Virus genome (UHGV): UHGV-2190349
Origin: a virus
DNA: 38,922 bases
Direction: 5' to 3' (one strand)
Under the pieces are notes generated by a model, which did not search any database, was not told where the DNA came from, and worked only from the letters and a program-made list of their open reading frames with translations. A program made the translations under genes and the position numbers. Positions 1 to 12,231 of the stretch are shown in pieces (the stretch's first letter is position 1; each line of letters starts with the position of its first letter).

Positions 1-1158
1 ATGCTCACCGTTAAGCAGATTGAAGCAGCAAAGCCGAAAGAAAAACCATACCGCCTTCTCGATGGTAATGGACTGTACCTTTATGTCCCTGTATCCGGGA
101 AAAAGGTATGGCAGCTTCGCTACAAGATTGACGGTAAGGAGAAAATCCTGACCGTAGGAAAATATCCGCTTATGACTTTGCAGGAGGCAAGGGATAAAGC
201 ATGGACTGCGAGGAAAGACATCTCGGTTGGCATCGATCCGGTAAAAGCGAAAAAGGCTTCGTCTAACAACAATTCCTTTAGTGCGATTTACAAGGAATGG
301 TACGAGCACAAGAAGCAAGTCTGGTCAGTAGGCTATGCAACTGAACTTGCAAAAATGTTTGATGACGACATTTTACCTATCATCGGCGGCCTTGAAATTC
401 AGGATATTGAGCCGATGCAACTGCTGGAAGTAATCCGCAGATTTGAAGATCGCGGTGCAATGGAACGAGCCAACAAAGCACGCAGAAGATGCGGCGAGGT
501 TTTCCGTTACGCTATTGTCACCGGAAGGGCTAAATATAACCCGGCACCTGACCTTGCAGACGCCATGAAAGGATACCGCAAGAAGAACTTCCCGTTTCTT
601 CCTGCAGACCAGATCCCTGCATTCAACAAAGCACTGGCAACATTTTCAGGAAGCATCGTATCGCTCATTGCGACTAAAGTTTTGCGCTACACAGCCCTAA
701 GAACGAAAGAGCTTCGTTCCATGCTATGGAAGAACGTCGATTTTGAAAACAGGATTATCACCATCGACGCCAGTGTGATGAAGGGACGCAAAATTCATGT
801 GGTCCCGATGTCAGACCAGGTGGTTGAACTTCTCACTACGCTAAGCTCCATCACCAAACCAGTATCAGAGTTTGTTTTTGCCGGGCGCAACGATAAGAAG
901 AAGCCAATCTGCGAGAACGCGGTATTGCTTGTGATCAAACAAATCGGCTATGAAGGTCTGGAAAGCGGTCATGGATTCAGGCATGAATTCAGCACGATTA
1001 TGAACGAGCACGAATGGCCTGCTGATGCTATTGAAGTGCAACTGGCACATGCCAACGGCGGATCTGTGCGTGGAATATACAACCATGCTCAGTATCTCGA
1101 TAAGCGCAGAGAAATGATGCAGTGGTGGGCGGACTGGCTTGATGAAAAGGTGGCGTAA
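1..1158 (+). CDS. intS: Tyrosine-type site-specific integrase (IntS-like, KplE1/CPS-53 family)
   Basis: 385-aa ORF starting at ATG; C-terminal catalytic region with HxxR and terminal Tyr (GHGFRHEFST...RGIYNHAQY); N-terminus MLTVKQIEAAKPKEKPYRLLDGNGLYLYVP matches my recollection of E. coli IntS. Confidence 0.9.
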   Translation: MLTVKQIEAAKPKEKPYRLLDGNGLYLYVPVSGKKVWQLRYKIDGKEKILTVGKYPLMTLQEARDKAWTARKDISVGIDPVKAKKASSNNNSFSAIYKEWYEHKKQVWSVGYATELAKMFDDDILPIIGGLEIQDIEPMQLLEVIRRFEDRGAMERANKARRRCGEVFRYAIVTGRAKYNPAPDLADAMKGYRKKNFPFLPADQIPAFNKALATFSGSIVSLIATKVLRYTALRTKELRSMLWKNVDFENRIITIDASVMKGRKIHVVPMSDQVVELLTTLSSITKPVSEFVFAGRNDKKKPICENAVLLVIKQIGYEGLESGHGFRHEFSTIMNEHEWPADAIEVQLAHANGGSVRGIYNHAQYLDKRREMMQWWADWLDEKVA

Positions 1159-1484
1159 TGCCACCCATCACCCACCCTGTCATCCTGTAGCGCGCTGTTG
1201 ATGAAGAACGTCACGCGCCCCAGCACCTCAACTTCCTCCGCCTCCTCCCCTTCGATCGCTTCACCATCATCAGTGATTAATGCCCTACCCATTACCCGGG
1301 CAAACTGCGTTCTGCCGCCAGATAAAATCAGCAGAACCTGATTCTGTACCAGCCTGGTGCACGGCTCGATAACGGCAAAGCCGGATGAGGTTTCCAGGAT
1401 GCGAGTGTCGACGCCAACACCGCAGATTCGCTCCGGAGTTAACCGCTGCTCTACATAGTCGCCAGCCGGCGAAGGGAAGCCCAT
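1089..1484 (-). CDS. Hypothetical acidic protein with UmuD/MucA-type N-terminal arm motif (GFPSPAGDYVEQR); possible degenerate LexA/S24-fold protein
   Basis: 131-aa ORF; ATG preceded by GGGGAGGG Shine-Dalgarno inside the upstream gene and overlapping its stop (TAATG); 3' end overlaps the int 3' end by 70 nt on the opposite strand; canonical S24 motifs (GxSM, TVKK) not evident. Confidence 0.45.
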   Translation of the reverse strand: MGFPSPAGDYVEQRLTPERICGVGVDTRILETSSGFAVIEPCTRLVQNQVLLILSGGRTQFARVMGRALITDDGEAIEGEEAEEVEVLGRVTFFINSALQDDRVGDGWHYATFSSSQSAHHCIISLRLSRY

Positions 1485-1732
1485 TACAGAACCCTCCCCA
1501 TGTTACGTAGCATCCAGAGACGGTTTTCACTGTGGTCAGGCGTCTTGTCGACAAAGAACTCTTGATAGCGCTGGATCCACTCGTTGGCGTCGACCTGGCT
1601 GAAATGCCAGTTTCTCGTGCGCAACTCACGGATGAAGTCGTTCGTATGAAGGCACTGATAACCCTTTGGGTTTTGCTGTACTGCAGCGACAAATGCGCTG
1701 TGAATGTCTGATTGGCGGGGTATGATCTGCAC
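1484..1732 (-). CDS. Hypothetical protein (82 aa), first gene of a two-gene coupled operon
   Basis: ORF track; apparent GTG start immediately after AAAAAGGA; stop overlaps start of the downstream ORF; no recognisable family. Confidence 0.4.
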   Translation of the reverse strand: MQIIPRQSDIHSAFVAAVQQNPKGYQCLHTNDFIRELRTRNWHFSQVDANEWIQRYQEFFVDKTPDHSENRLWMLRNMGRVL

Positions 1733-1815
1733 TCCTTTTTACTGTTTTTATATACAGTAGTTTTAAAGGAGATGCAGATCAATGAGGCGATACCTATCAA
1801 TAATCCCGGCTGGCG

Positions 1816-3645
1816 TTACACCTGACCAAGGTCCTCTACGCTTTCCTGATCATTCAGCAAGGTAATGGCAACAGCAATTGAGGAGAGGATAGTTTTGATT
1901 TCTATGGTGTTCATCCCTTCCTTTTCCCGGACGTACTCGCATAATTTATCGACGTCAAATATCTCTCTGATGTTTGTATATTCGGCGGCTCTTTCAAGCA
2001 AGTGCACGATTTCTTCTCGCTGACCTTCGACAAATTGAGCCTGCCATGCTTGCACAGACCTTGGCGTGAATTTAACCCCGCTATCATAAGGAGCATCTGC
2101 GATATCAAGGCCAAATCTACCCTGCAATGATTTATCCCATGTCGCATTCAAAAATGGCAGAGAAACTAATTCAGGAGCCAGCTTTGCCATGACGCTGTAG
2201 TGGAACAATTCTTTGTTCCTGGCCTCCGGACTGAGCTTGAATACCAAACGCGCAACTTTAGGAGAGAGAAGTGGCATCAGTTTAATTCTGCCTGTGACGT
2301 TCTGAGCAAGAGGGCCGTTCCAATTGGAAAGACGGTTTTCTACGAAGAACTTCTCAGGTAAAACATCAAACCTTACAGATTTAATATTCTCCTCAAGCCA
2401 GCCGTAGAACCAACCTATTTGAGCGTTTTTATACAAACTGGAGAGAATGTTTAATGGATCCATCTTCTGATGGTAGTTTATGAACTTAGAAAGAATTGCA
2501 TCTTTATTGTCCATAAAGGACAGGTTTTTAAACTGCTTGGCGTGTCCGCCGGGTCCGCGATATAGCTCGCCGCCAAAGCCAGTCATATCGGACGTTATAT
2601 TTTTGATGGTGCGTTCAGCTGTTGCTCCATCCCATGGGCAAATATAACTTTCCATTCTGTAGGAATGCCAGTTAAGTTTTTCCCATGAATTAGCAAAATC
2701 CTGAGCTTTAACTTGTGGAGCCTTAACGTTAGCGACGTGCTTAACGCCGATTTTGCTGGCTATGTTCTGAGCGCAACTTATCTCCGGGCTTCCTTCCGGT
2801 CCGTTCGTAAATGTGGTAATCCTGTCTTTGAATCCTGCACCCAATGCCAGTGCAAGGACAAGACGAGAGTCCTTACCACCGGTCAGTGATAAGCGGAGTT
2901 CACCGGGAATGTTTTCACTCGCAGCCTTAAAGTTTTTCACCAATTCATCTACGATCAAATCCCAGTCATCACCTGAAAGGTCATTTAGATATTCAGCATC
3001 CTCACTTGAAGGCCAGATCTGATTCTTAAATTTATTGATATTTACTGTTGTTGAACCGATTGGTGACTTTAAATAGCTACCTGCCGTGATTGTATTTACA
3101 CCTTCAAATGGTGTTTCATTTCCAAATATATTGGCATGCCCAATCAACCAGCTCAATGAGGAAAGGTTATATTTACCATTGCCTCGTAATTCATGTAATG
3201 CAGATGCTCTGTTACTTACGCAGGTCACACCATCAATTATTGTGTAATAAATAGGACAGGTGCCTGAGAAATCGCCGAAAGCAAGGAGGCCATTCTTGGA
3301 GGTTATTGAAACGAAGTTGTAAGACCCGGAAATATTGTCAAACATGTATTCCGCATCGTTTTTTGTGGAGGCATCAAGTGCGGCGTCAGACACGTCATAG
3401 CTATCCCCCATCCTTAAAACAGGGCCATTTATCAGGCATACGCCGCTTTGCTTAGATGTTATTCTTTTTGATATTTCGCCTTCCGCATTGCCACATGCTG
3501 TATATGCCCAAGCTCCGCTACCAGATATTTTATTAGCCACCTCTACTGGCTTAAATGTTAAGTTCCTTTTTAGGGCCTGCTGCGCTGTCTCGTATAATTT
3601 CTTAACAGACTCGCTTTTTCCATTTAAAACAATAAAGTTTATCAT
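1816..3645 (-). CDS. Asparagine synthetase (AsnB) family PP-loop ATP-pyrophosphatase/amidoligase homolog lacking the N-terminal glutaminase cysteine
   Basis: 609-aa ORF; PP-loop SLTGGKDS at residues ~253-260; AsnB-like segments (ITAGSYL, FTNGPEGSPE, LLAFGDFSGTCPIYY); begins MINF with no Cys2; visibly AT-rich relative to neighbouring phage genes. Confidence 0.8.
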   Translation of the reverse strand: MINFIVLNGKSESVKKLYETAQQALKRNLTFKPVEVANKISGSGAWAYTACGNAEGEISKRITSKQSGVCLINGPVLRMGDSYDVSDAALDASTKNDAEYMFDNISGSYNFVSITSKNGLLAFGDFSGTCPIYYTIIDGVTCVSNRASALHELRGNGKYNLSSLSWLIGHANIFGNETPFEGVNTITAGSYLKSPIGSTTVNINKFKNQIWPSSEDAEYLNDLSGDDWDLIVDELVKNFKAASENIPGELRLSLTGGKDSRLVLALALGAGFKDRITTFTNGPEGSPEISCAQNIASKIGVKHVANVKAPQVKAQDFANSWEKLNWHSYRMESYICPWDGATAERTIKNITSDMTGFGGELYRGPGGHAKQFKNLSFMDNKDAILSKFINYHQKMDPLNILSSLYKNAQIGWFYGWLEENIKSVRFDVLPEKFFVENRLSNWNGPLAQNVTGRIKLMPLLSPKVARLVFKLSPEARNKELFHYSVMAKLAPELVSLPFLNATWDKSLQGRFGLDIADAPYDSGVKFTPRSVQAWQAQFVEGQREEIVHLLERAAEYTNIREIFDVDKLCEYVREKEGMNTIEIKTILSSIAVAITLLNDQESVEDLGQV

Positions 3646-3910
3646 TTAATTCCCGCGCAAGATAATTGGCAATATTTAAAGTTGATAACTATTTGGTTAA
3701 CAGAGTAAACAACCAAGATTGTGCAATACTTGCTAGGACGGGTCAATGATTTGTGTGTGGTTTTGGGGTCTAACCACTAATTTTGATATCAGTAGTGAAT
3801 TTTACAAATGCAGGATTGAGGGTGCTCTTGCGCCACCAAAAGATGCGAATATGACGTAGCGAAAGCACCCTCTCTGTTTGGGTAGGATTGACGATTAGTG
3901 CATCAGAAAG

Positions 3911-6364
3911 CTACTTTGCTTCGAGATTTCCCACTCGTTCAGCCAGAGCCTCAAACTGCGATAGCAGCCTTTGATGATTACGACGATGAAGGGCAGCCTC
4001 CATCACTAATGCCTCCTCATATCGAATGCCATAGCGTGATCCCGCTTCAACCGCCGGAACTACTACATCGCCAGTCTCTTCATCAAGAACTTCTGGTGAG
4101 CTTTCCCACTTGTCATAACAGAAGAAAGCAAACTGGTGAGGATCAAGTCCATGACGGATAAACGCTTCTTGCGCACGCTGGGCAATAATGCCGACATGCC
4201 AACGGGCTCCATCATCTCCCTTTGCCTCTATACGGTCAATGAACTGGAACTGCACGAAATCTACTTCCGCCCAGGCATCCAGAATATCATCTGCGTACGG
4301 CGCTTCCATTAACCGTGAATCTGTCGTTTGGACGGGTTCGAGAGAACCACGAGCCAGCATCACTGGACGCGATTTTTGCCTTTCATCGGAGGTGACAGTA
4401 TACGCAGCCTGAGTGAATCCGCCCGCAAATGGACTTGAACTGGTACCAACAGTTCTGGTGTTAGCGGCGCTGGGCTGGATATTGCCGTTTACGCTCATGT
4501 TGGTGTTGATATTTACGACAGCAGAAGCAAAGCGTGCAACTTCAGTACCGGCCGACGCTTCAGTTGATGAGACGTAGAGGCCGACAGCATTTTTACTAAG
4601 GACTGCGGTTCGGGCAAATCCACTAGAATCGCGGATCTCTCCGAGCCCAACTTGATAATCGTCAGACTGCGGGCCGGTAACGTTAGTGATGCAATGGAAT
4701 ACGCCACCCATTTGGTTAAACGGATCTGTCACGGATTCAAGATGAAGGCCATCTATAATGATCTTCCCGGTATTGCTACCCCCTGACTCTATGCCTACAG
4801 GGCAATTCCTTAACGTCACGTTGGTTAGTTTTTGATATTTCCTGTTCAGGCGTAAGGCAACATTGGTGTCTCTACACACAATATTGGTTACAGAACACGC
4901 CTCTGCATCACCAAACTGCCGATCACTGGCTCCGGAGGCTGTTGTTGTCTGGTATCCGGTTATTGCGTTAGCGCACTGAATATTTGATCCGTTGCAATAT
5001 CGCTCCTCAATCCACACTGAAGCCCCAATTCTTCCGCCATCATATCCGAGACATGATATATTGCTGTAATTGACGAATGGGGATTTAATATGGAGCCCGA
5101 TGATGTCTGAATCAGTGGATTTAAATCGGTTCTGAATGACTGTGATGTTTGTAACATCACTCCATACACCGCCAGTTCCACGACTGACGGTATCGCCAAT
5201 GATCCCCTGCTTGATACGGACGCCAGCGCCGGGCGCTCCGACGTTACCAAAGTCTGACACATAAACGTTCGATACCTTCGGCGCCAATGACATTACGTCA
5301 ACGCCTGCCCAAGGGTGGGCTGGCTCGTCAAGTTGCCCGAAGTTGAAAACGAAGATGTTATTTAATTGAAACGCGCGACTGACAGACCCATTATCCTTAA
5401 TGTCGATACCATCTGCGCCGGTGTTTTCAGACCAGAATCCGTCGATGCTGCAGCCCTTATACCCGCCATTCTGAAGACCCAAGGCATAATGAGAGCAGTT
5501 CTTTACCTTGAGGCCGCGAATTGTAAGCCCCTCGATTCCTGCTCCGACAATGCCTTCAGTTTGCCGGGCGTAAGGAGTACCATTCCATAAGTAATTCCCG
5601 TCGATACAAATATCTTGAAGGCCGACGCCCCTTACTTTTGTGGTGCCGTTTTCGAGCGGTGGCTTTGACCACTGTATTACCCCATATGCAGCATCTGTGT
5701 TGTAAGCTCTTATAGTAGTAGAGTTCCATCCCTGCCCACGGAGAATAATGTTGTCAAATGGGATGCGCAAAGCAGCAACGTTTAACGTTGCGTTGGCAGA
5801 GCTAAATTCAGTCGGATCCTGATGCACCATGTATAAGGGCCGCGGGAATACAATCGTGCCCCCGCCGGCTGCACTGAGTTCCTGCGCCTTCTGCATTATC
5901 AGTCTTGCGTTCTGCAGGGCGACAACCTGGCTAACAACCCCAGGGATTACGCCAAATGAATCAGCGGTTATTTCAATGCCACCAATTAATGACGAGCCGG
6001 TACTGGAGCTTAATCTCTGGACAAAAGAAAACGGATCAACCAGGGAGCAATTTTCAAAATAGTATTGCTGAGCCCCATAAGCATCGTAAACAGCCATGCT
6101 GTAATCACTTTCAGTGACTATGGTTACAACCTGGCCATTATATACTGGGTAACCTGAGGAATTAATTTTAACTGGCTGGCTGATCTGCACCAGGGAGCCA
6201 TTTTCATTCCTGAAATAAACCGCTACCCTATTGGCTGGATTTGTTGGATCCGTGTCAGGAACACCAACATAAATATTACCGTTTGCGATAGCTTTAAAGC
6301 TTCTCGGCGTAATAAATGGGATGTACGGCATTGTTACTTGCTGGTTGGCAATGATATCTGGCAT
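3911..6364 (-). CDS. Tailspike protein with P22 gp9-like N-terminal head-binding domain and C-terminal intramolecular-chaperone (peptidase S74-like) domain
   Basis: Start set at internal ATG (MPDIIANQQ...) preceded by GGAGA; N-terminus aligns by eye with the P22 tailspike head-binding domain (RSFKA.ANG.IY.G..DTDP.NPAN); C-terminal ~159 aa begins with SDERQK (Ser-x4-Lys autocleavage motif). Confidence 0.9.
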   Translation of the reverse strand: MPDIIANQQVTMPYIPFITPRSFKAIANGNIYVGVPDTDPTNPANRVAVYFRNENGSLVQISQPVKINSSGYPVYNGQVVTIVTESDYSMAVYDAYGAQQYYFENCSLVDPFSFVQRLSSSTGSSLIGGIEITADSFGVIPGVVSQVVALQNARLIMQKAQELSAAGGGTIVFPRPLYMVHQDPTEFSSANATLNVAALRIPFDNIILRGQGWNSTTIRAYNTDAAYGVIQWSKPPLENGTTKVRGVGLQDICIDGNYLWNGTPYARQTEGIVGAGIEGLTIRGLKVKNCSHYALGLQNGGYKGCSIDGFWSENTGADGIDIKDNGSVSRAFQLNNIFVFNFGQLDEPAHPWAGVDVMSLAPKVSNVYVSDFGNVGAPGAGVRIKQGIIGDTVSRGTGGVWSDVTNITVIQNRFKSTDSDIIGLHIKSPFVNYSNISCLGYDGGRIGASVWIEERYCNGSNIQCANAITGYQTTTASGASDRQFGDAEACSVTNIVCRDTNVALRLNRKYQKLTNVTLRNCPVGIESGGSNTGKIIIDGLHLESVTDPFNQMGGVFHCITNVTGPQSDDYQVGLGEIRDSSGFARTAVLSKNAVGLYVSSTEASAGTEVARFASAVVNINTNMSVNGNIQPSAANTRTVGTSSSPFAGGFTQAAYTVTSDERQKSRPVMLARGSLEPVQTTDSRLMEAPYADDILDAWAEVDFVQFQFIDRIEAKGDDGARWHVGIIAQRAQEAFIRHGLDPHQFAFFCYDKWESSPEVLDEETGDVVVPAVEAGSRYGIRYEEALVMEAALHRRNHQRLLSQFEALAERVGNLEAK

Positions 6365-6411
6365 TTGCTGTTCTCCAGGTGCAGAAAAGCCGCACAAGCT
6401 AAAACTTGCGC

Positions 6412-6426
6412 AGCGTGGCTACGGTT
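6412..6426. repeat. Direct repeat copy 1 (AGCGTGGCTACGGTT)
   Basis: Identical 15-mer recurs at 6522..6536, flanking the palindrome. Confidence 0.7.
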
Positions 6427-6476
6427 AGTTTTTTGTGATAAAACAACTTTTTCGGAAGTTATTTTGTTCGCTTTTC

Positions 6477-6499
6477 GACCTACACTTTTTGTGTAGGTC
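6477..6499. promoter_or_regulatory. Perfect 9-bp-arm palindrome (GACCTACAC-TTTTT-GTGTAGGTC); candidate Mnt-type operator in the mnt/tailspike divergent intergenic region
   Basis: Read directly from sequence; sits between divergent mnt and tailspike starts; no U-tract on either strand, so not a typical terminator. Confidence 0.4.
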
Positions 6500-6521
6500 T
6501 CTCCTTCAAGCTCATTGCCTA

Positions 6522-6536
6522 AGCGTGGCTACGGTT
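6522..6536. repeat. Direct repeat copy 2 (AGCGTGGCTACGGTT)
   Basis: Identical to 6412..6426. Confidence 0.7.
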
Positions 6537-6622
6537 GGTATTTGTTGCATACCGAGACGGTACCATTGTTGATTTGTACAGTAGGTTTTACGATGCCATT
6601 CCACCCATTTGGTGAGGCATTG

Positions 6623-6886
6623 ATGATGTACAGCAAATACGATGAGGCGCAGTTCCACTTGAGGCTTACGCACGAGTTGCACGCTAAGATTAAGCAGCGT
6701 GCGAAGATGAATAACAGGTCGCTGAACTCAGAGATAATTGCAGCGATTGAAGAATCATTGGATAAACAAAGCTCTGCATCAGTTTACATTGACGATGCAG
6801 AGCGTATGGCAGAACAACAATCTGATATGGTTAAGAAAATTGTCTTTGATACGCTCAAGGAGCTATATAAAAAAGACTGCAACTAA
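6623..6886 (+). CDS. mnt: Mnt-like ribbon-helix-helix repressor (immI-type), orphan with no arc/ant
   Basis: Start at internal ATG with GGTGAGG Shine-Dalgarno; product strongly resembles P22 Mnt (NNRSLNSEIIAAIEESL...DDAERMAEQQSDMVKKIVFDTLKELYKK). Confidence 0.85.
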   Translation: MMYSKYDEAQFHLRLTHELHAKIKQRAKMNNRSLNSEIIAAIEESLDKQSSASVYIDDAERMAEQQSDMVKKIVFDTLKELYKKDCN

Positions 6887-6975
6887 CCATCCATTACGGA
6901 GGATTTATGCAAAGAGATATGCTGAATATTGCATTCTACATATTTGGTTTTTGCACTTTCCTGGTGTTTGCAAAG

Positions 6976-8973
6976 CTATTCTGACAACGCATCAGACTTA
7001 GCGCCTTGGGTCAGCGCGTTAATTGCCTTTTGTGCCTGCTGCAAGGCTTTCTCAAACGCTGTTGATCCGCGTTGGGTGTTTGCCATTCGGAGCATTGCAT
7101 TTCTGAATGGCTCGCTCTCATAGGCGCGAGCAAGAAGTCCGTAGCTTACTGCTGCGCCAGTTGTCGCCGGGTTCATTGCCGTCCCATACCCAATAATGAA
7201 CGGGATAGTTTGCTGCCCTGTGGGTGTTGTTACTGCCGCTTTTGCAGCCTGCTGCGTGGATTGCAGGTAGTTTTTTAATCCTTTCAGATAAGCAGCGTCC
7301 TGCCCCTTAAATGTGATGCCAGTCTGGTTTTGCAGGATATTAAGCTGCCGAAGGAACTGGTCAGGGGATCCACCTGATTTCTCCATCGCCTTTCCAATGA
7401 TGCCATTGCGCATTTGCGCCCTGCCAACACGGCCAACTGAGTTGTACAGCGTCTTAATTTCCGATTTGTTCTTGCTGAATAGCATGTTGTTGACAACTTC
7501 CGGAGTAAGATCTCCTTTAATGAGAACATTCTTCAGCCGGGTATTCTTTAGTTTCGCCGCTTCGTCAGCGTAGACGGCATTGGCCTGCTGATATTTACGG
7601 AGAGTATCGTTGCCAAGATTCTGACCAATGGCACCATTGATATCGTCGGTCATCGCCTTGTAAACGCGCTGAATGGCAGCATCGGAACGGTTTGGTAACA
7701 CTGGTCGCTCACCCTTCACGTCCATTCTGAACTGGCTGCGCAGATCGCTTAATTGCTTCAAGTCCAGATTTACCGGACCATCAGGGCCAGCATTGCGAAC
7801 AAGCTCATCACGATATGACTGAAGTTTTGAAATGGTCTCGTTATCAGCGACCTTACCAAGCTTCTGCAGATTAGATATCTCGGTATCAATCTGCTGAATT
7901 GCTCGCGCAGGATGAATGTTTACTCCAGCCATAGCATTCTGAACCTGCTCCAGTCGATTACCGGCGGCACGACGAATTCCTGATGTTTTCGCTTTAAGGC
8001 TGTCAATAACAACTGCTGGATCATACTCACCGAATTTATCAGCAAATCTCTGCACCAACTGGCTTCTCGCTTCCTGTTGCGTTGCTCTCATTCCGCTTGT
8101 GCCAGCCAGGGGGATATTTTCCGCTGTCGTCTGCGCCATTTTCCCGACGCGGGAAGTAGGCTGTAACAGGTCTGTGGTGTGCAGAGGAACTCCTTCACGC
8201 TCTGCAAATCTGATAGCCTGCTGCGCTTCTGGCGCAATAGCACCACGAACGCCACGATAAGCAGCACCTAATCCACGTCCGGCAGCGTTAATAGCACCGC
8301 CAGCCAGCACACCAACGCCTAAATCGGTGGCGAGGGCTTCCGCATCATCTTTCGCACTATTTGCAGCAAGTGATCCAACTGCGTTTTCAGCGAGAAGACG
8401 AGTTGCCCCCTGAGCAATTCGACCAGCAAGTGTTGGTGCCTGTGTTGCCGCTCTCTCAATGCCAGCAGGAGTGAGGTAAGGCAATGCCTCAGCAAATACC
8501 CTTCCCTCTGTAGTTTGTGGAGTCAGCGCGCCTTGCTGAAGGCCAAAGTCCTGCTCTAATCCCTGCGTTGTTACTCGTGGCGCTGGTTGATATGTACCAT
8601 CACCAATACCGAGTTTACCGCCAGCCCATGCCGCCGCGCTTGTTACAGCATCGGCAACTGATGCAGGTATGTTTGCCACGTTCACGCCAGCCTGTACCAG
8701 TCCGCGACCAGTCTCTTTTACTGCTTCGCCAAGATCAGACATAAATCCACTTTGCTGTGGTTGTTGCTGTGCTACTGGCTGTTGTGTCTCCACTGGCTGC
8801 ACTGATGGCAATGGATAGGCAGCATAGAAAGCTTGCTTAGCCTGCTCTGCATTTTCTCCGGCTTGCGGGGCCACGACTTCATTGAAGTATTGCTCCTGAG
8901 CCTGCGCTTTTTGTTCTGGTGCTAACGCCTGATACTGTGGAGAGGCGATAACATCTTTCCATGCTTTAGCCAT
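6976..8973 (-). CDS. Internal virion/DNA-ejection protein (P22 gp16 position)
   Basis: 665-aa ORF at the end of the P22-order virion gene string; low-complexity Ala/Gln-rich sequence. Confidence 0.7.
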   Translation of the reverse strand: MAKAWKDVIASPQYQALAPEQKAQAQEQYFNEVVAPQAGENAEQAKQAFYAAYPLPSVQPVETQQPVAQQQPQQSGFMSDLGEAVKETGRGLVQAGVNVANIPASVADAVTSAAAWAGGKLGIGDGTYQPAPRVTTQGLEQDFGLQQGALTPQTTEGRVFAEALPYLTPAGIERAATQAPTLAGRIAQGATRLLAENAVGSLAANSAKDDAEALATDLGVGVLAGGAINAAGRGLGAAYRGVRGAIAPEAQQAIRFAEREGVPLHTTDLLQPTSRVGKMAQTTAENIPLAGTSGMRATQQEARSQLVQRFADKFGEYDPAVVIDSLKAKTSGIRRAAGNRLEQVQNAMAGVNIHPARAIQQIDTEISNLQKLGKVADNETISKLQSYRDELVRNAGPDGPVNLDLKQLSDLRSQFRMDVKGERPVLPNRSDAAIQRVYKAMTDDINGAIGQNLGNDTLRKYQQANAVYADEAAKLKNTRLKNVLIKGDLTPEVVNNMLFSKNKSEIKTLYNSVGRVGRAQMRNGIIGKAMEKSGGSPDQFLRQLNILQNQTGITFKGQDAAYLKGLKNYLQSTQQAAKAAVTTPTGQQTIPFIIGYGTAMNPATTGAAVSYGLLARAYESEPFRNAMLRMANTQRGSTAFEKALQQAQKAINALTQGAKSDALSE

Positions 8974-10361
8974 TAATCACCCCATAGTGAAGAAAAGTTA
9001 CTGCTGGCTGCTGGCTGTGATACCTGTGCAGGTTGAGATTTCTGCCGCTGAGATTTACCAACATCAACGTTATATTGTTGATTGTAATTGTTGGTGTATT
9101 CCTGAATCTCACGAATCGACTGCTGCATAGCCTCCGGGCTTGAATAGTCAACCTGCGGCATCCCCTGAAAATACATCTTCGCTTCTGCAACGGTGTTAAT
9201 ACCACTGGCACCCATATCCCTTGCTGCCGCCACACCCTGATTCTGCATTCTGCCCTGAATACGTTGTGCTGAGTTATATAACTGGCGCTGCTCTTTTCCT
9301 GTTAATCGGCTGCGAACATCAGCACCAATTGCTGGATTACCTGCACCGCCTGTCATTCCTGTCATGAAATCGAGAGCAGAAGCGTCTGCATTTGCGATCG
9401 CGTCGATATCCTTCTTCATGGCATAGTTTTGTGCTGATGCAGACGATGTTGCAGGCGCTGCGATTGAACTGGCAGGCACGCGAACCATATTCCCCTCGTT
9501 GTCGATGCCTTCGTAGAACGCATTAGCCCCAGCGCCGTGAAGTTTCCCGCCTACCGTTACAGTTCTGCCATCTGATAACTGAACTGTACGCTCATCATTC
9601 CCAGCGGTTCCTCTTGTTGACGCTCGCTGCATTGCCAAATCCTGCCCGCGTCGCGCAGTAGAAGCAGATAAGTCCTGACCGCGCATCGTGATGTTCTGGC
9701 CTCGTGCTGTTAGCGCCTCGCCAGCCTGATTGCTGCGGATTGTCTCTGCAAGTTTTCCGCGATCAATCTCACGACCAGCCATCTTGTCCTGAACATTGAA
9801 GTAATCAATTGGACCAAGAGCAGCCATCCCAAGGTGATCAACAAACTCACCAAATCCTGAAGGATTCTGCTGATACATCTGAGCAACGCTGTTAGGGTCA
9901 ACACCGACGCGAGTCAGTTCCTTGGCGTTGTTTTGCAGCCATGATTGCATTGCTTCTGGAGACGATGACGCAAGGCGTGCGCCAGCCGCTAAGGTGCCGA
10001 TAGAATTACGCTGGTCTTCATCAATGAATCCCATGCCTTTACGAACGGATTCAATCTGGTCTGGATATTGAGTAGCCAACTGACGCAAAGCACCGCGATC
10101 ACCAGACGCATAAGCATTAGCGTACGCCTGCTGAAATTCTTTCTGCCGCTGAGCCTGCTTTTCCTGCTGAAAAACACCCGCAACACCTGAAAGACCTTGC
10201 AAAGCAGTCAGCCCAACATTGTTAGCGCCTGAACGCTCAATATCATTGTTCTGCCTGATAAGCTGAAGCGTATTGCCGATGTCATTTACGCTCGGAGCGT
10301 TTGAGTTGACGCCGCCGATACCAGCTAACAATCCGCCATTTGATCCTTGCCAAGTAGCCAT
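8973..10361 (-). CDS. DNA-ejection protein (P22 gp20 position)
   Basis: 462-aa ORF; position and size match P22 gene 20. Confidence 0.75.
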
Positions 10362-10370
10362 GATTACCCC

Positions 10371-11072
10371 TTAAAACAACGAGCCAAGCAATCCGATACC
10401 AGCACCAATGCCAGCGCCCCAAGGTGTTGATGTTCCCAAAAGGCTGGCAAGACCTGCACCGGTAATCGCACCAGACGTGCCACCGCTAATTGCAGTCTGA
10501 AGACTTGATGGTTTATTGGCATTAGCAGCGGCAAGAGCTGCGCTTTGCTGCGAAATCTGACTCATGTTGTTGGCATATGTCTGCCCGGCGTTTGCCTGAC
10601 CTTGCAGTGCGCCAAGACCAATATTTGCCAGATTCTGGTAGTTGTTCATCTGACCAGACAGCCACTGCTGACCAAGCGTTGGTGCGATTGTTGCTAACTG
10701 ATTACCGGTTGCAGTGGAACCCAATCCACCTGTTGCTTCCGCTGCAGCCAGACTCTGATAGCGAGCCTGACCAGCAAGATCTTTGTACTGCTGAGAGTTG
10801 TAATACTGGTTAAGTGCCTGACCTTGCCCCTGAAGAGAGGAAAGATTCTGCAATTGTGATACGTACTGCTGAGCGAGTGGCGTGAACGGAGCAAGGTTTT
10901 TCATGATCGTCTGCCACTGCTTATTCTGCAGGTCTGCGGCATACTTCTGAGCTTCTGCGGCATACTTTGCGCTTTTATCAGAGCTGCCACTTTTCCCGCC
11001 TTTCCCGCCTTTTTCAGGGCAATAAGGTTCCTCGCCGCGCAGTTTTCTGCCCAGCTTAAATGCATATAACAT
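10371..11072 (-). CDS. DNA-ejection protein (P22 gp7 position)
   Basis: 233-aa ORF; position and size match P22 gene 7. Confidence 0.7.
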   Translation of the reverse strand: MLYAFKLGRKLRGEEPYCPEKGGKGGKSGSSDKSAKYAAEAQKYAADLQNKQWQTIMKNLAPFTPLAQQYVSQLQNLSSLQGQGQALNQYYNSQQYKDLAGQARYQSLAAAEATGGLGSTATGNQLATIAPTLGQQWLSGQMNNYQNLANIGLGALQGQANAGQTYANNMSQISQQSAALAAANANKPSSLQTAISGGTSGAITGAGLASLLGTSTPWGAGIGAGIGLLGSLF

Positions 11073-11074
11073 GG

Positions 11075-11530
11075 CTATCTCCCGTGATTCAGGAAGTCGA
11101 TTAGTTCTTCGCGTGTGGCACTGTAAAAAGTCACGTCATCCACGCCTTTGAAGTATTTCTTGATGGTTCCTACACGCTTAAGGCCAATCATTGCGCAGTA
11201 CATCTGACCGTGGCGGAATTTGCGCGCAGCGAACGATGTGACGCACTGAACGGTGGTGTTAGTCAGAATGTATCGCCAGAACGCCAGACCGATTTCCTTG
11301 CTGAAGCCGCGAATCTCTGGCAGGTACATGGCGTGGCAATCGAATGTAAGAGGCTGAATTTCCTGATAGTAAACAATGCCGCCGAACTGCCCGTGCACGT
11401 TCACCTCAAAGTAACGGCAATCAGGTTTGTAGTCGTATCCATCACCGTTGTTGCTCCCGGCGATAATGTCGGGGTGATTTCCCACGGCTTCTATCAGGTC
11501 GATGTTTCGCGTTGGTTTGAATGTAATCAT
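11075..11530 (-). CDS. Virion protein (P22 gp14 position)
   Basis: 151-aa ORF; synteny. Confidence 0.65.
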   Translation of the reverse strand: MITFKPTRNIDLIEAVGNHPDIIAGSNNGDGYDYKPDCRYFEVNVHGQFGGIVYYQEIQPLTFDCHAMYLPEIRGFSKEIGLAFWRYILTNTTVQCVTSFAARKFRHGQMYCAMIGLKRVGTIKKYFKGVDDVTFYSATREELIDFLNHGR

Positions 11531-12231
11531 CAGTCAATCAGCCCATGTAATCTAAGTGCTGTTTCAAGCGCCAGAATACGCTGCCGCGCCTGCTCCAAAC
11601 CTGTAGCGATAGCTGCGACTTCGGATTGTGTGTACGTAGTGCCGACCGTGTATGACTGGTTAGCGTTGAATGAGCCAAGAAGTGGCGTACCTGTGGCTGC
11701 AGTCCATCCGGTATTTCTTGCTCCAACAACCTGAATTCCATCAACTGAATATGATGTTTTTACATCCAGCGGTGACGCAAGAGACTGCGATTCGGTTACA
11801 GTTTTCGATACGTAATCACTCTTAATGTCAGATACATCGCTTTCTACGCCATCCAGTCTTTGGTCAACAGTGACCAGATGCGCCTGAATATCGATAACCT
11901 CATCCAGCAAGTAATCAACATCGCTACGCAGTACGACTATCTTCCCTTCGGCAGTTGTTAACCTGACCTCAAGTAGATTTATCGCTTTTGTGTTTGCGGT
12001 GATTCTTGCGTCGTGATCAGCCAGTTCGACGTCCTGTTCATCGTTTTTTACCTGAGCATCGTAAGCGCCCTGACCAGCCTGATTTGCCTTCCCGGCAATT
12101 GCACCGACATCAGCACCCTGATTTATGACATACAGCAGGTAAGACTGGCTGAATATATTGCGTGGCAAAATTGAAGCATCAAGGCGCGTAGCCTGAACCG
12201 CGACAGGATTATTCAGTGATGAATCCGCCAT
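11530..12231 (-). CDS. Tail needle protein (P22 gp26-like)
   Basis: 233-aa ORF, coiled-coil-rich; position and length match P22 gp26. Confidence 0.8.

What the first reader, a model, noticed from the sequence alone, without database searches (positions are those of the whole stretch)
1816..3645. AsnB-family PP-loop enzyme without the glutaminase cysteine in the int-tailspike conversion locus
The slot between tailspike and int in P22-like phages normally holds O-antigen conversion genes (gtrABC, oac). Here it holds a 609-aa protein with an asparagine-synthetase-like layout: a GATase-II-like N-domain (LLAFGDFSGTCPIYY) that starts MINF with no Cys2 nucleophile, and a synthetase domain with PP-loop SLTGGKDS. 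Glutaminase-dead AsnB homologs are known as ligases/cyclases (lasso-peptide cyclases, beta-lactam synthetase) rather than asparagine synthetases. The gene is visibly AT-rich versus flanking phage genes. I do not know an equivalent gene in described P22-like conversion loci or a defense family built on this fold, so it is a candidate novel lysogenic-conversion or superinfection-exclusion/defense function.
Basis: partly seen in the sequence, partly recalled or inferred. Interest (0 to 1): 0.85.

Follow-up and report, generated by a model that had tools for sequence, protein, structure and literature searches.

The report
Prophage asparagine-synthetase-like surface-sugar modifying enzyme
A P22-like E. 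coli prophage carries, next to its tailspike gene, a rare asparagine-synthetase-like enzyme that cannot use glutamine; its bacterial relatives sit in capsule and O-antigen gene clusters, so it probably alters the host's surface sugar coat chemically, a type of phage serotype conversion I found no description of.

Summary
Window 1816-3645 (- strand) encodes a 609-aa protein with a confident two-domain asparagine-synthetase-B fold (pLDDT 92.6). The best structural matches are TsnB9, beta-lactam synthetase, AsnB and CarA. It has an invariant PP-loop (SLTGGKDSR) and no N-terminal cysteine. An in-frame TAA sits directly before the ATG, and none of about 165 relatives checked begins Met-Cys.

It belongs to no curated family: it scores below every Pfam and NCBIfam cut-off, does not match the WbpS model TIGR03108, and has no PADLOC hit.

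Context gives the function. Non-phage relatives (31-57% identity) lie inside polysaccharide operons, beside large GT2/GT4 glycosyltransferases, Kps-like exporters, hexapeptide acetyltransferases, sulfo- and methyltransferases, and twice UDP-glucose dehydrogenase. In phages the gene always occupies a lysogen-expressed accessory-gene slot:
- after the tailspike in this P22-like phage;
- after an unrelated tailspike in E. coli siphovirus-type prophages, where gene and tailspike diverged together (82% and 81%);
- between repressor and integrase in an Aeromonas P2-like prophage.

Best reading: an ATP-dependent enzyme that converts a carboxyl group of capsule or O-antigen, probably a uronic acid, into an amide, giving serotype conversion and receptor masking. 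Substrate and product are inferred, not shown. An intracellular defence role is unlikely.

The parts
1816..3645 (-). 609-aa AsnB-fold, Cys-less, PP-loop enzyme (the finding)
   Evidence: ORF; AF2 model; Foldseek against PDB; family alignment A1; 81 homologues; 314 representative clusters at E<=1e-30
3031..3645 (-). N-terminal Ntn (class II glutaminase-like) domain, about aa 1-205. It starts Met-Ile with no Cys. R61, N73 and G74 are invariant, but no conserved Asp was seen by eye where AsnB Asp98 would align
   Evidence: Alignment A1 invariant columns; PurF/GlmS fold hits; N-termini of 134 further representatives, none Met-Cys; TAA directly before the ATG
1816..2973 (-). Synthetase (ATP pyrophosphatase) domain, about aa 225-609
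   Evidence: Profile hits to ASNS, CarA and beta-LS over aa 90-311; full-length fold match; invariant GFGGELYR motif (G356-R363), D396 and E431
2863..2889 (-). PP-loop SLTGGKDSR (aa 253-261). G256, G257, K258, D259, S260 and R261 are invariant in 34 homologues
3646..3910 (-). Intergenic region (40% GC) between the tailspike stop and the gene start. It holds a 17-bp-stem hairpin at about 3815-3873 (candidate end of the late transcript) and a sigma70-like site, TTGACC-17-CACAAT, at 3746-3718
   Evidence: Sequence; RNA fold -28.7 kcal/mol, z = -3.46, 0 of 200 shuffles as stable; the promoter-like site is not above chance expectation
3911..6397 (-). Tailspike: P22-type head-binding domain, an uncharacterised beta-helix receptor-binding domain, and a C-terminal S74 intramolecular chaperone. 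The likely true start is the ATG at 6364
   Evidence: Pfam Head_binding 3.9e-39 and Peptidase_S74 4.5e-10; the receptor-binding part has no relative in phage records
3911..4017 (-). Last 106 bp of the tailspike gene, which form the left edge of the DNA block shared with E. coli siphovirus-type prophages. In those prophages this stretch is non-coding
   Evidence: blastn: window 1-4017, 1167-4017 or 1659-4017 matches L001-L008 at 93-97% identity; the tailspike proteins themselves are unrelated
1484..1732 (-). 82-aa ORF, phrog_3893, function unknown. It runs in the same direction as the gene, downstream of it, and is not always co-inherited with it
1089..1484 (-). UmuD'/HumD-like ORF (N-terminus GFPSPAGDY), 131 aa here and 105 aa in some relatives; it overlaps the 3' end of int
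   Evidence: phrog_3469 1e-44; NCBIfam HumD 1.4e-6; gene calls in L002, L007 and L008
1..1158 (+). Integrase (prophage end)
   Evidence: ORF; Pfam domains of the identical gene in L001; IME10 and HK620 int hits

Best explanation
The gene encodes a soluble, cytoplasmic, ATP-dependent amide-forming enzyme that modifies a surface polysaccharide (capsule or O-antigen) of the lysogen. The prophage carries it as a serotype-conversion, receptor-masking gene.

Proposed mechanism, by analogy with the AsnB superfamily. The PP-loop synthetase domain adenylates a carboxyl group of the glycan or its precursor, most probably a uronic acid such as GlcA. An amine then displaces AMP to give an amide. The N-terminal domain has no Cys nucleophile, so the nitrogen cannot come from glutamine hydrolysis. 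It must be free ammonia or another amine, possibly an amino acid. The enzyme needs ATP, so it must act on the cytoplasmic side, either on a nucleotide sugar or on a polymer built in the cytoplasm, as in ABC-transporter-dependent pathways. Neutralising or decorating the carboxylate would change the epitope and the substrate seen by tailspikes. That would protect the lysogen from superinfection and change its serotype.

Shown: the fold, the dead glutaminase, the conserved ATP site, the genomic associations, and the position in lysogen-expressed slots. Inferred: the glycan substrate, the amide product, and the phenotype.
For: (1) Enzyme. AsnB-family fold with high confidence. The PP-loop and other synthetase-domain motifs are invariant across 34 homologues at 31-82% identity, which argues for an active adenylating enzyme. 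The whole clade is Cys-less.
(2) Chromosomal homologues lie in polysaccharide loci.
- Burkholderia anthina: Poly_export, ABC2_membrane, ABC_tran, a 980-aa GT2/GT4, the gene, then a hexapeptide acetyltransferase.
- P0010 (54% identity): Poly_export, BNR_4, a 1186-aa GT2-GT2-GT4, the gene (starting 13 bp after the glycosyltransferase stop), an overlapping hexapeptide acetyltransferase, rmlBDAC, UDP-glucose 6-dehydrogenase, a second NTP_transferase gene and PGI.
- Pseudomonas sister-clade protein: directly after UDP-glucose 6-dehydrogenase, inside a glycosyltransferase-rich cluster.
- Further loci carry 900-1600-aa bifunctional glycosyltransferases, ABC-2 transporters, TylF/Methyltransf_24, sulfo- and acetyltransferases.
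- Among 93 neighbour ORFs of 15 distant loci, the commonest families are GT2 (6), Sulfotransfer_3 (5) and GT1/4.
(3) Domain fusions in the sister clade: sugar O-methyltransferase domains (Methyltransf_24, CmcI) and a ConA-like lectin domain.
(4) Phage contexts.
- Tailspike-int slot of a P22-like phage, where related phages keep oac, gtr or acyltransferase genes.
- Directly downstream of an unrelated 814-aa beta-helix tailspike in E. coli siphovirus-type prophages at four chromosomal sites.
- In a diverged copy of that pair, tailspike and gene are 80.6% and 81.9% identical to the first pair, so they were inherited together.
- Between the cI-like repressor and int, in the same direction as both, in an Aeromonas P2-like prophage, which implies expression in the lysogen.
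(5) Precedents. AsnB-family WbpS, WbqG and PGN_1234 convert uronic acids to uronamides in O-antigens and A-LPS (PMC7468200, PMC6025236). [quoted passage not shown]
Against: No biochemical or phenotypic data exist. The protein does not match the WbpS family model, and none of 34 family members does. It lacks the glutaminase those enzymes use, so the chemistry may differ. UDP-glucose dehydrogenase was seen in only 2 of about 12 polysaccharide loci. Several loci (actinobacterial-type, with sulfo- and methyltransferases) give no hint of a uronic acid. In the phages the gene stands alone, so its substrate must pre-exist in the host, and the host O and K types are unknown. The two E. coli tailspikes next to the nearly identical gene (98%) are unrelated. 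A strict one-tailspike-one-modification pairing is therefore not shown. Receptors of both tailspikes are unknown. The promoter call is not significant. The gene is rare: it is absent from 5,426 complete E. coli genomes.
Confidence: 0.5

Rival explanations
1. It is an intracellular anti-phage defence or abortive-infection enzyme. For example, it might adenylate or amidate a phage or host molecule, or deplete ATP or aspartate on infection. On this view it sits in prophage accessory-gene hotspots as many defence genes do.
For: It is a single gene of lower GC in lysogen-expressed slots of three unrelated prophage types. Its distribution is sporadic and rare. PP-loop/QueC-like proteins do occur in some defence systems (from my own knowledge, not tested here).
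Against: No PADLOC model matches it. The one paper that pairs 'asparagine synthase' with anti-phage defence terms is a jumbo-phage genome description, so no literature link was found. Non-phage homologues are embedded in tightly packed polysaccharide operons, not among the defence genes I looked at. Domain fusions are to sugar methyltransferases and a lectin domain. The gene co-diverges with a tailspike.
Confidence: 0.12
2. It amidates a conserved envelope carboxylate rather than a serotype-specific polymer. Candidates are peptidoglycan meso-DAP or D-iGlu (as AsnB1 and LtsA do), ManNAcA of enterobacterial common antigen, or Kdo/GalA of the LPS core.
For: AsnB-family enzymes are known to amidate peptidoglycan (established knowledge, not tested here). 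A stand-alone gene that works behind two different tailspikes and in both Escherichia and Aeromonas would fit a conserved substrate.
Against: Those enzymes retain the Cys nucleophile; this clade does not. The neighbours of chromosomal homologues are polymerising glycosyltransferases, exporters and decoration enzymes, with no mur, dap or core-LPS genes.
Confidence: 0.1
3. It adds a different glycan decoration that needs carboxylate activation, not a uronamide. Options include attaching an amino or hydroxy acid to an amino sugar, forming a lactam, or a chain-terminating modification in ABC-transporter-dependent O-polysaccharide synthesis.
For: It co-occurs with, and is fused to, methyltransferases typical of chain terminators. 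Most loci lack a visible ugd. The closest structures (TsnB9, beta-LS, CarA) use non-ammonia nucleophiles or intramolecular amines.
Against: Nothing specific argues against it. It is a variant of the best explanation, with the same pathway and phenotype but a different product. Adjacency to ugd in two loci favours a uronic acid.
Confidence: 0.2
4. It is a natural-product or peptide cyclase (lasso-peptide or macrolactam type), or a genuine ammonia-dependent asparagine synthetase carried as an auxiliary metabolic gene.
For: Weak NCBIfam hits to the macrolactam cyclase NF033561 (1.5e-7; 13 of 34 members) and to TIGR01536. It is Cys-less, like lasso cyclases and beta-LS.
Against: Scores are an order of magnitude below the curated cut-offs (30 against 300 bits; 39 against 267). 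No precursor peptide, leader protease, transporter or beta-lactam pathway genes appear in any of about 20 contexts.
Confidence: 0.04

Closest known systems
WbpS (P. aeruginosa O6), WbqG (E. coli O121), PGN_1234 (P. gingivalis): AsnB-family uronamide-forming amidotransferases (NCBIfam TIGR03108, eps_aminotran_1)
   Same: AsnB superfamily fold with a PP-loop. They are encoded in O-antigen or EPS clusters near nucleotide-sugar dehydrogenases. The proposed chemistry is the same, carboxylate to amide on a uronic acid (PMC7468200, PMC6025236).
   Different: No match to TIGR03108 for the window protein or any of 34 family members. No Cys nucleophile, so it cannot depend on glutamine. WbpS-type enzymes are chromosomal pathway enzymes, and none was found described as a prophage conversion gene.
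NeuO, the polysialate O-acetyltransferase of P22-like prophage CUS-3
   Same: It works the same way at the system level. [quoted passage not shown] The window tailspike also ends in the S74 chaperone domain typical of capsule-specific spikes.
   Different: An unrelated fold and chemistry (left-handed beta-helix acetyltransferase against an ATP-dependent AsnB fold). neuO varies in phase through a 5' tandem repeat; no tandem repeat is present here.
Classical seroconversion cassettes in the tailspike-int slot of P22-like phages (gtrABC of P22, oac of Sf6 and Sf101, the acyltransferase candidate of Kapi1)
   Same: The same genomic slot in closely related phages. The expected outcome is the same: a modified receptor polysaccharide.
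   Different: Those are membrane proteins that use lipid-linked or acetyl donors. No homology was found. An ATP-dependent cytoplasmic enzyme must intercept the glycan before export.
Cys-less or atypical AsnB-fold ligases and cyclases: beta-lactam synthetase, carbapenam synthetase CarA, lasso-peptide cyclases, TsnB9
   Same: The best structural matches. beta-LS and CarA likewise lack glutaminase activity and use adenylation for amide formation.
   Different: 10-16% identity. There is no natural-product gene context, and the neighbours are glycan genes. TsnB9 keeps a working N-terminal nucleophile (from my own knowledge, not tested here).
E. coli K54 against K96 capsules: a GlcA-Rha backbone, with Thr/Ser on GlcA only in K54
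   Same: It shows that amino-acid amidation of GlcA exists in E. coli ABC-transporter capsules. The kps locus is typed jointly as K54/K96, and the papers read name no gene for the modification (PMC10433991, PMC13410964). The P0010 locus (rml + ugd + bifunctional glycosyltransferase + this enzyme) would fit a GlcA-Rha polymer.
   Different: No homologue of this gene was detected in 5,426 complete E. coli genomes, even with the distant blastn mode, and no E. coli kps-linked relative appears among 81 homologues. The link is an analogy only.

Membership tests
Glutamine-dependent asparagine synthetase B (class II/Ntn amidotransferase; TIGR01536, PF13537+PF00733) | N-terminal Cys nucleophile exposed after Met removal | tested here: not met
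   The protein starts Met-Ile-Asn-Phe, with TAA directly upstream. All 34 aligned homologues and 134 further representatives lack Met-Cys.
Glutamine-dependent asparagine synthetase B (class II/Ntn amidotransferase; TIGR01536, PF13537+PF00733) | PP-loop SGGxDS ATP-pyrophosphatase motif | tested here: met
   SLTGGKDSR at aa 253-261, invariant G256-R261.
Glutamine-dependent asparagine synthetase B (class II/Ntn amidotransferase; TIGR01536, PF13537+PF00733) | Two-domain Ntn + synthetase fold | tested here: met
   Foldseek: 1ct9 E 1e-12, human ASNS 1e-12; N-domain hits to PurF and GlmS.
Glutamine-dependent asparagine synthetase B (class II/Ntn amidotransferase; TIGR01536, PF13537+PF00733) | Score above the curated family cut-off | tested here: not met
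   TIGR01536 38.7 bits against 267.1; PF00733 20.1 against 21.
Glutamine-dependent asparagine synthetase B (class II/Ntn amidotransferase; TIGR01536, PF13537+PF00733) | Aspartate-binding residues and asparagine synthesis | not testable with these tools
   The C-terminal half does not align by sequence with AsnB, and no residue-level structural alignment was available.
WbpS/WbqG uronamide amidotransferases (TIGR03108 eps_aminotran_1) | Match to the family profile | tested here: not met
   No TIGR03108 hit at E<=1 for the window protein, nor at 1e-3 for any of 34 homologues.
WbpS/WbqG uronamide amidotransferases (TIGR03108 eps_aminotran_1) | Encoded in polysaccharide biosynthesis clusters with uronic-acid supply genes | tested here: met
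   True for chromosomal homologues: ugd is adjacent in L016 and in-cluster in L062, and glycosyltransferase or exporter genes are present in about 11 of 12 loci. Not true of the phage copies, which stand alone.
WbpS/WbqG uronamide amidotransferases (TIGR03108 eps_aminotran_1) | Produces a uronamide | not testable with these tools
   Needs glycan NMR/MS or an enzyme assay.
Cys-less AsnB-fold cyclases and ligases (beta-LS, CarA, lasso-peptide or macrolactam cyclases) | Fold similarity and loss of glutaminase | tested here: met
   1mc1 and 1jgt E 1e-14, 1q15 1e-12; Cys absent.
Cys-less AsnB-fold cyclases and ligases (beta-LS, CarA, lasso-peptide or macrolactam cyclases) | Partner genes (precursor peptide and leader protease, or a beta-lactam pathway) and profile score above cut-off | tested here: not met
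   NF033561 30.4 bits against 300; none of about 20 neighbourhoods contains such genes.
Phage serotype-conversion genes of the P22-like tailspike-int slot | Location between tailspike and int/att in a temperate phage | tested here: met
   the slot is described in the Kapi1 preprint.
Phage serotype-conversion genes of the P22-like tailspike-int slot | Homology to Gtr, Oac or NeuO-type modifiers | tested here: not met
   The only Pfam, PHROG or NCBIfam matches are distant AsnB/QueC-type hits.
Phage serotype-conversion genes of the P22-like tailspike-int slot | Alters host O-antigen or capsule and phage adsorption | not testable with these tools
   Requires lysogen or plasmid expression experiments.
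Known anti-phage defence systems (PADLOC-DB v2) | Match to any defence protein model | tested here: not met
   0 families at E<=1 for this protein and for both downstream ORFs.

The most novel reading that the evidence does not exclude
A temperate-phage-borne, ATP-dependent 'glycan amide ligase' defines a new chemical class of serotype conversion. It would neutralise or decorate the carboxylates of an acidic capsule or O-antigen in the cytoplasm, perhaps with an amino acid as in the K54-type Thr/Ser-GlcA modification, for which the papers read name no gene. That would make the lysogen invisible to the tailspike it travels with. The few hundred Cys-less relatives would then be the unrecognised enzymes behind amide-decorated uronic acids in many bacterial polysaccharides.
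Probability: 0.35. Interest if true: 0.8.

Novelty: new variant of a known kind. Interest (0 to 1): 0.62.

Why it matters
Phage serotype conversion is described as working through glucosylation, O-acetylation or changes to the polymerase. An ATP-driven change of glycan charge (carboxylate to amide) encoded by a single prophage gene would add a new mechanism. It would bear on phage host range, on receptor-based phage therapy and typing, and on capsule and O-antigen vaccines. It would also give a first functional handle on an unannotated, Cys-less branch of the asparagine-synthetase superfamily: about 314 clusters at E<=1e-30, with no Pfam or NCBIfam model. That branch recurs in polysaccharide loci from Proteobacteria, Actinobacteria and others. 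It offers candidate enzymes for the many O and K antigens known to carry amidated uronic acids or amino-acid-linked uronic acids whose genes are unassigned.

Tried and rejected
(1) Upstream start supplying a Cys: rejected, because TAA directly precedes the ATG and the N-terminus is conserved across the family.
(2) Defence system: no PADLOC hit and no literature link.
(3) DNA and protein searches of 50,697 phage records and 5,426 complete E. coli genomes for the gene found nothing. IMG/VR holds only the source contig (L065, 100% identical) and one distant hit.
(4) Identifying the receptor from the tailspikes failed. Both receptor-binding domains are uncharacterised. Only the head-binding and S74 chaperone parts, or an N-terminal anchor, match known phages.
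(5) One tailspike matched to one modifier: the window tailspike and the siphovirus-type prophage tailspike are unrelated, although co-divergence holds within the siphovirus-type lineage.
(6) K54/K96 link: attractive, but no homologue occurs in E. coli kps loci or complete genomes. Kept as an analogy only.
(7) Phase-variation repeat as in neuO: none found.
(8) Literature searches for AsnB-like enzymes that attach amino acids to uronic acids, or for phage-borne AsnB homologues, returned nothing relevant.
(9) The afdb50 fold library was unavailable. The viral fold library gave only remote AsnB/GATase proteins, TM <= 0.48.
(10) Sigma70 promoter and intrinsic-terminator scans were at chance level. 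Only the post-tailspike hairpin stands out.
(11) The crude ORF calling of 15 distant genome loci is noisy. I used it only for family counts.
Full report
**1. What is there**

Window 1816-3645 (- strand) is a 609-aa ORF. It lies between the tailspike gene (3911-6397, -; the likely true start is the ATG at 6364) and the integrase (1-1158, +). Two small ORFs in the same direction separate it from int: an 82-aa phrog_3893 protein and a UmuD'/HumD-like protein.

The rest of the window is a P22-like Escherichia/Shigella phage. It is about 95% identical to Sf101, Kapi1 and phiv205-1 over 55-74% of positions 6400-31000.

An in-frame TAA directly precedes the ATG, so no upstream start could add a cysteine.

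GC content is 43.1% against 48.2% for the window. This is the lowest value for any window of that size, but only about 2 SD below the mean, and the immunity region matches it.

**2. What the protein is**

Sequence profiles see only a distant relationship:
- Pfam Asn_synthase E 5.5e-4, just below the gathering threshold.
- NCBIfam TIGR01536 E 6e-10, at 39 bits against a cut-off of 267.
- Macrolactam cyclase NF033561 E 1.5e-7.
- No PADLOC hit.
- An unknown-function PHROG at E 2e-8.

An AlphaFold model built on 34 homologues is confident, with pLDDT 92.6 and pTM 0.92. Foldseek against the PDB places the whole chain in the AsnB family:
- TsnB9 6e-15 (TMq 0.63).
- Beta-lactam synthetase 1e-14.
- E. 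coli AsnB 1e-12.
- CarA 1e-12.
- Human ASNS 1e-12.

PurF and GlmS also match the N-terminal Ntn domain.

In the family alignment the PP-loop G256-G257-K258-D259-S260-R261 is invariant. So are a GFGGELYR motif, D396 and E431. This is what an active adenylating enzyme would show.

Every member begins Met-(Ile/Leu)-x-(Phe/Tyr). A profile search of 1.84 billion representatives finds 314 clusters at E<=1e-30, and none of the 134 new representatives begins Met-Cys. R61 and N73-G74 are invariant and may be vestiges of the glutamine pocket. I saw no conserved Asp where AsnB Asp98 would align (my reading).

So this is a distinct, uncurated, glutaminase-dead branch of the AsnB superfamily. NCBI names its members only 'asparagine synthase-related protein' or 'hypothetical protein'.

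**3. Where its relatives live**

The family is rare and patchy. It occurs in E. coli (98% identity), unnamed read assemblies (80-82%), Aeromonas media (70%), Burkholderia anthina (56%), Salinivibrio, Paracoccus, Ilumatobacter, Acidimicrobiia and others.

Non-phage members sit in polysaccharide loci:

| Locus | Gene order or neighbours |
|---|---|
| Burkholderia anthina | Poly_export, ABC2_membrane, ABC_tran, 980-aa GT2/GT4, the gene, hexapeptide acetyltransferase |
| P0010 (54% identity) | One compact operon: Poly_export, DUF8374, BNR_4, 1186-aa GT2-GT2-GT4, the gene (13 bp after the glycosyltransferase stop), overlapping hexapeptide acetyltransferase, rmlBDAC, UDP-glucose 6-dehydrogenase, a second NTP_transferase gene, PGI, GT2 |
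| Pseudomonas sister-clade protein (770 aa) | Directly follows UDP-glucose 6-dehydrogenase in a glycosyltransferase-rich cluster |
| Other loci | 900-1600-aa bifunctional glycosyltransferases, ABC-2 transporters, TylF/Methyltransf_24, ALGX, sulfotransferases, hexapeptide acetyltransferases |

Among 93 neighbour ORFs from 15 more distant loci, the most frequent Pfam families are GT2, Sulfotransfer_3 and GT1/4.

Long sister-clade proteins are fused to other domains. These are sugar O-methyltransferase domains (Methyltransf_24/CmcI), class I methyltransferases and a ConA-like lectin domain.

Large polymerising glycosyltransferases and ABC-2 transporters recur together in these loci. That points to polymers completed in the cytoplasm, where a soluble ATP-dependent enzyme can reach them.

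**4. Phage contexts**

- In E. coli the 98%-identical gene lies directly downstream of an 814-aa beta-helix tailspike. The carriers are siphovirus-type prophages (tape measure, DUF1833, GpJ) integrated at four different chromosomal sites.
- The DNA shared with the window runs from int (or from inside or after the small ORFs) up to 106 bp inside the 3' end of the window's tailspike gene. That stretch is non-coding in the siphovirus-type prophages.
- The two tailspikes are unrelated.
- In a diverged siphovirus-type relative (L061) the tailspike and the gene are 80.6% and 81.9% identical to the first pair. The pair was therefore inherited together over considerable divergence.
- In Aeromonas media the 70% homologue sits between the cI-like S24 repressor and int of a P2-like prophage, in the same direction as both, that is, in the lysogenic transcript.
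- In the window, a stable hairpin (z = -3.46) follows the tailspike stop. A 265-bp AT-rich spacer precedes the gene. The sigma70-like site in it is not statistically meaningful.
- No tandem repeat suggests phase variation.

**5. Most likely mechanism**

Established AsnB-superfamily chemistry adenylates a carboxylate at the PP-loop site, and an amine then attacks the acyl-adenylate. The neighbourhoods add the likely substrate. Together they suggest that the enzyme converts a carboxyl group of a capsule or O-antigen sugar into an amide. The sugar is most plausibly GlcA or another uronic acid.

The Cys nucleophile is absent, so the amine must be free ammonia or another amine, possibly an amino acid.

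For the prophage, this would be a one-gene serotype conversion that alters the receptor used by tailspike-bearing phages.

Shown here: the fold, the conserved ATP site, the loss of the glutaminase nucleophile, the genomic associations, and the lysogenic placement. Inferred: the substrate, the product and the phenotype.

I put the broad claim (a glycan-modifying lysogenic-conversion enzyme) at about 0.65, and the specific uronic-acid amidation at about 0.4-0.5.

**6. Rivals**

- An intracellular defence role is disfavoured by the chromosomal contexts, the domain fusions, and the absence of PADLOC and literature hits.
- Amidation of peptidoglycan, ECA or core LPS is possible but has no support from the neighbours.
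- A different glycan decoration (amino-acid acylation, lactam formation, or chain termination with the associated methyltransferases) remains open. It would be a variant of the main explanation.
- A natural-product cyclase or a true asparagine synthetase is very unlikely (and all contexts).

**7. Comparison with what is known**

- The closest chemistry is WbpS/WbqG/PGN_1234, AsnB-family enzymes that make uronamides in O-antigens and A-LPS (PMC7468200, PMC6025236). This protein fails their profile (TIGR03108) and lacks their nucleophile, so it is not a member.
[quoted passage not shown] NeuO is an acetyl-CoA-dependent enzyme that decorates the K1 capsule polymer and raises phage resistance (PMC3046976, PMC13001214).
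- The slot itself is the classical home of oac, gtr and acyltransferase genes in Sf6, Sf101, P22 and Kapi1.
- The K54 capsule is the K96 GlcA-Rha backbone with Thr/Ser added. The kps locus is typed jointly as K54/K96, and the papers read name no gene for the modification (PMC10433991, PMC13410964). This shows that such amide decoration exists in E. coli without an assigned gene. No homologue of this gene occurs in 5,426 complete E. coli genomes, so that link is only an analogy.

**8. Verdict**

Of its two functional options, lysogenic conversion is supported and intracellular defence is not.

I rate the finding a new variant of a known kind: serotype conversion by an enzyme class and chemistry I found no description of in phages, belonging to an uncharacterised Cys-less AsnB clade. 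Interest is about 0.6. The claim is testable with one clone and a glycan analysis.

Noticed in passing
window 1089-1484 (-): A UmuD'/HumD-like ORF starting GFPSPAGDY, that is, resembling the already-cleaved form of UmuD (phrog_3469 1e-44; NCBIfam HumD 1.4e-6). It is 131 aa here and overlaps the int 3' end by 70 nt, but relatives in L002, L007 and L008 are called at 105 aa. A possible SOS-mutagenesis accessory gene at the prophage end.
   Followed up: partly
window 1484-1732 (-): An 82-aa ORF of unknown function (phrog_3893, 5e-42). Its stop abuts the start of the HumD-like ORF. It is present with the AsnB-like gene in some E. coli prophages (L001, L002, L005, L007, L008) but truncated or absent in others (L003, L004, L006; homology ends at window 1659).
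   Followed up: partly
window 3911-4017; L001 7629-7735: The last 106 bp of the window tailspike gene (the end of the S74 chaperone domain) are conserved at 96-97% as non-coding DNA downstream of an unrelated tailspike in E. coli siphovirus-type prophages. This looks like a recombination scar marking how the accessory-gene block moved between phage types.
   Followed up: partly
window 3911-6397 (-): The tailspike receptor-binding domain (about aa 125-640) has no relative in 50,697 phage records and only one partial 82% DNA hit in 5,426 complete E. coli genomes. Only the P22 head-binding domain and the C-terminal S74 chaperone (about 50% identical to Kagunavirus and K5-lyase-type spikes) are recognisable. 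The ORF listing TTG start at 6397 is probably wrong; the Head_binding domain begins at the ATG at 6364.
   Followed up: partly
window 3815-3873 (-): A 17-bp-stem hairpin immediately after the tailspike stop (GAGGGTGCTTTCGC...GCGCAAGAGCACCCTC), -28.7 kcal/mol, z = -3.46, without a T-run. It may be the end of the late transcript or an RNA-stabilising element.
   Followed up: partly
L001-L008, L061 (about 5091-7535 in L001): An 814-aa pectate-lyase-like beta-helix tailspike in siphovirus-type E. coli prophages, with an N-terminal roughly 170 aa that resemble tail proteins of Klebsiella phages. It is always followed by the AsnB-like gene. The receptor is unknown.
   Followed up: partly
L010/L062/L021 (gene next to the AsnB-like homologue): A 245-255-aa hexapeptide acyltransferase of the Vat/CatB/phn_thr-fam type recurs immediately next to the chromosomal homologues: downstream in Burkholderia and in the P0010 locus, upstream in Paracoccus. 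It may be a conserved two-enzyme decoration module.
   Followed up: partly
L020 (JAAYVM010000031.1, 2.7 kb): A 69%-identical homologue sits on a 2.7-kb contig binned as an Acholeplasmataceae MAG. Given the gammaproteobacterial affinities of its relatives, this is probably a binning error.
   Followed up: no
L065: IMG/VR contig IMGVR_UViG_3300045988_007063 is 100% identical to window 1-11645, so the window probably comes from this or a sibling metagenomic viral contig.
   Followed up: yes
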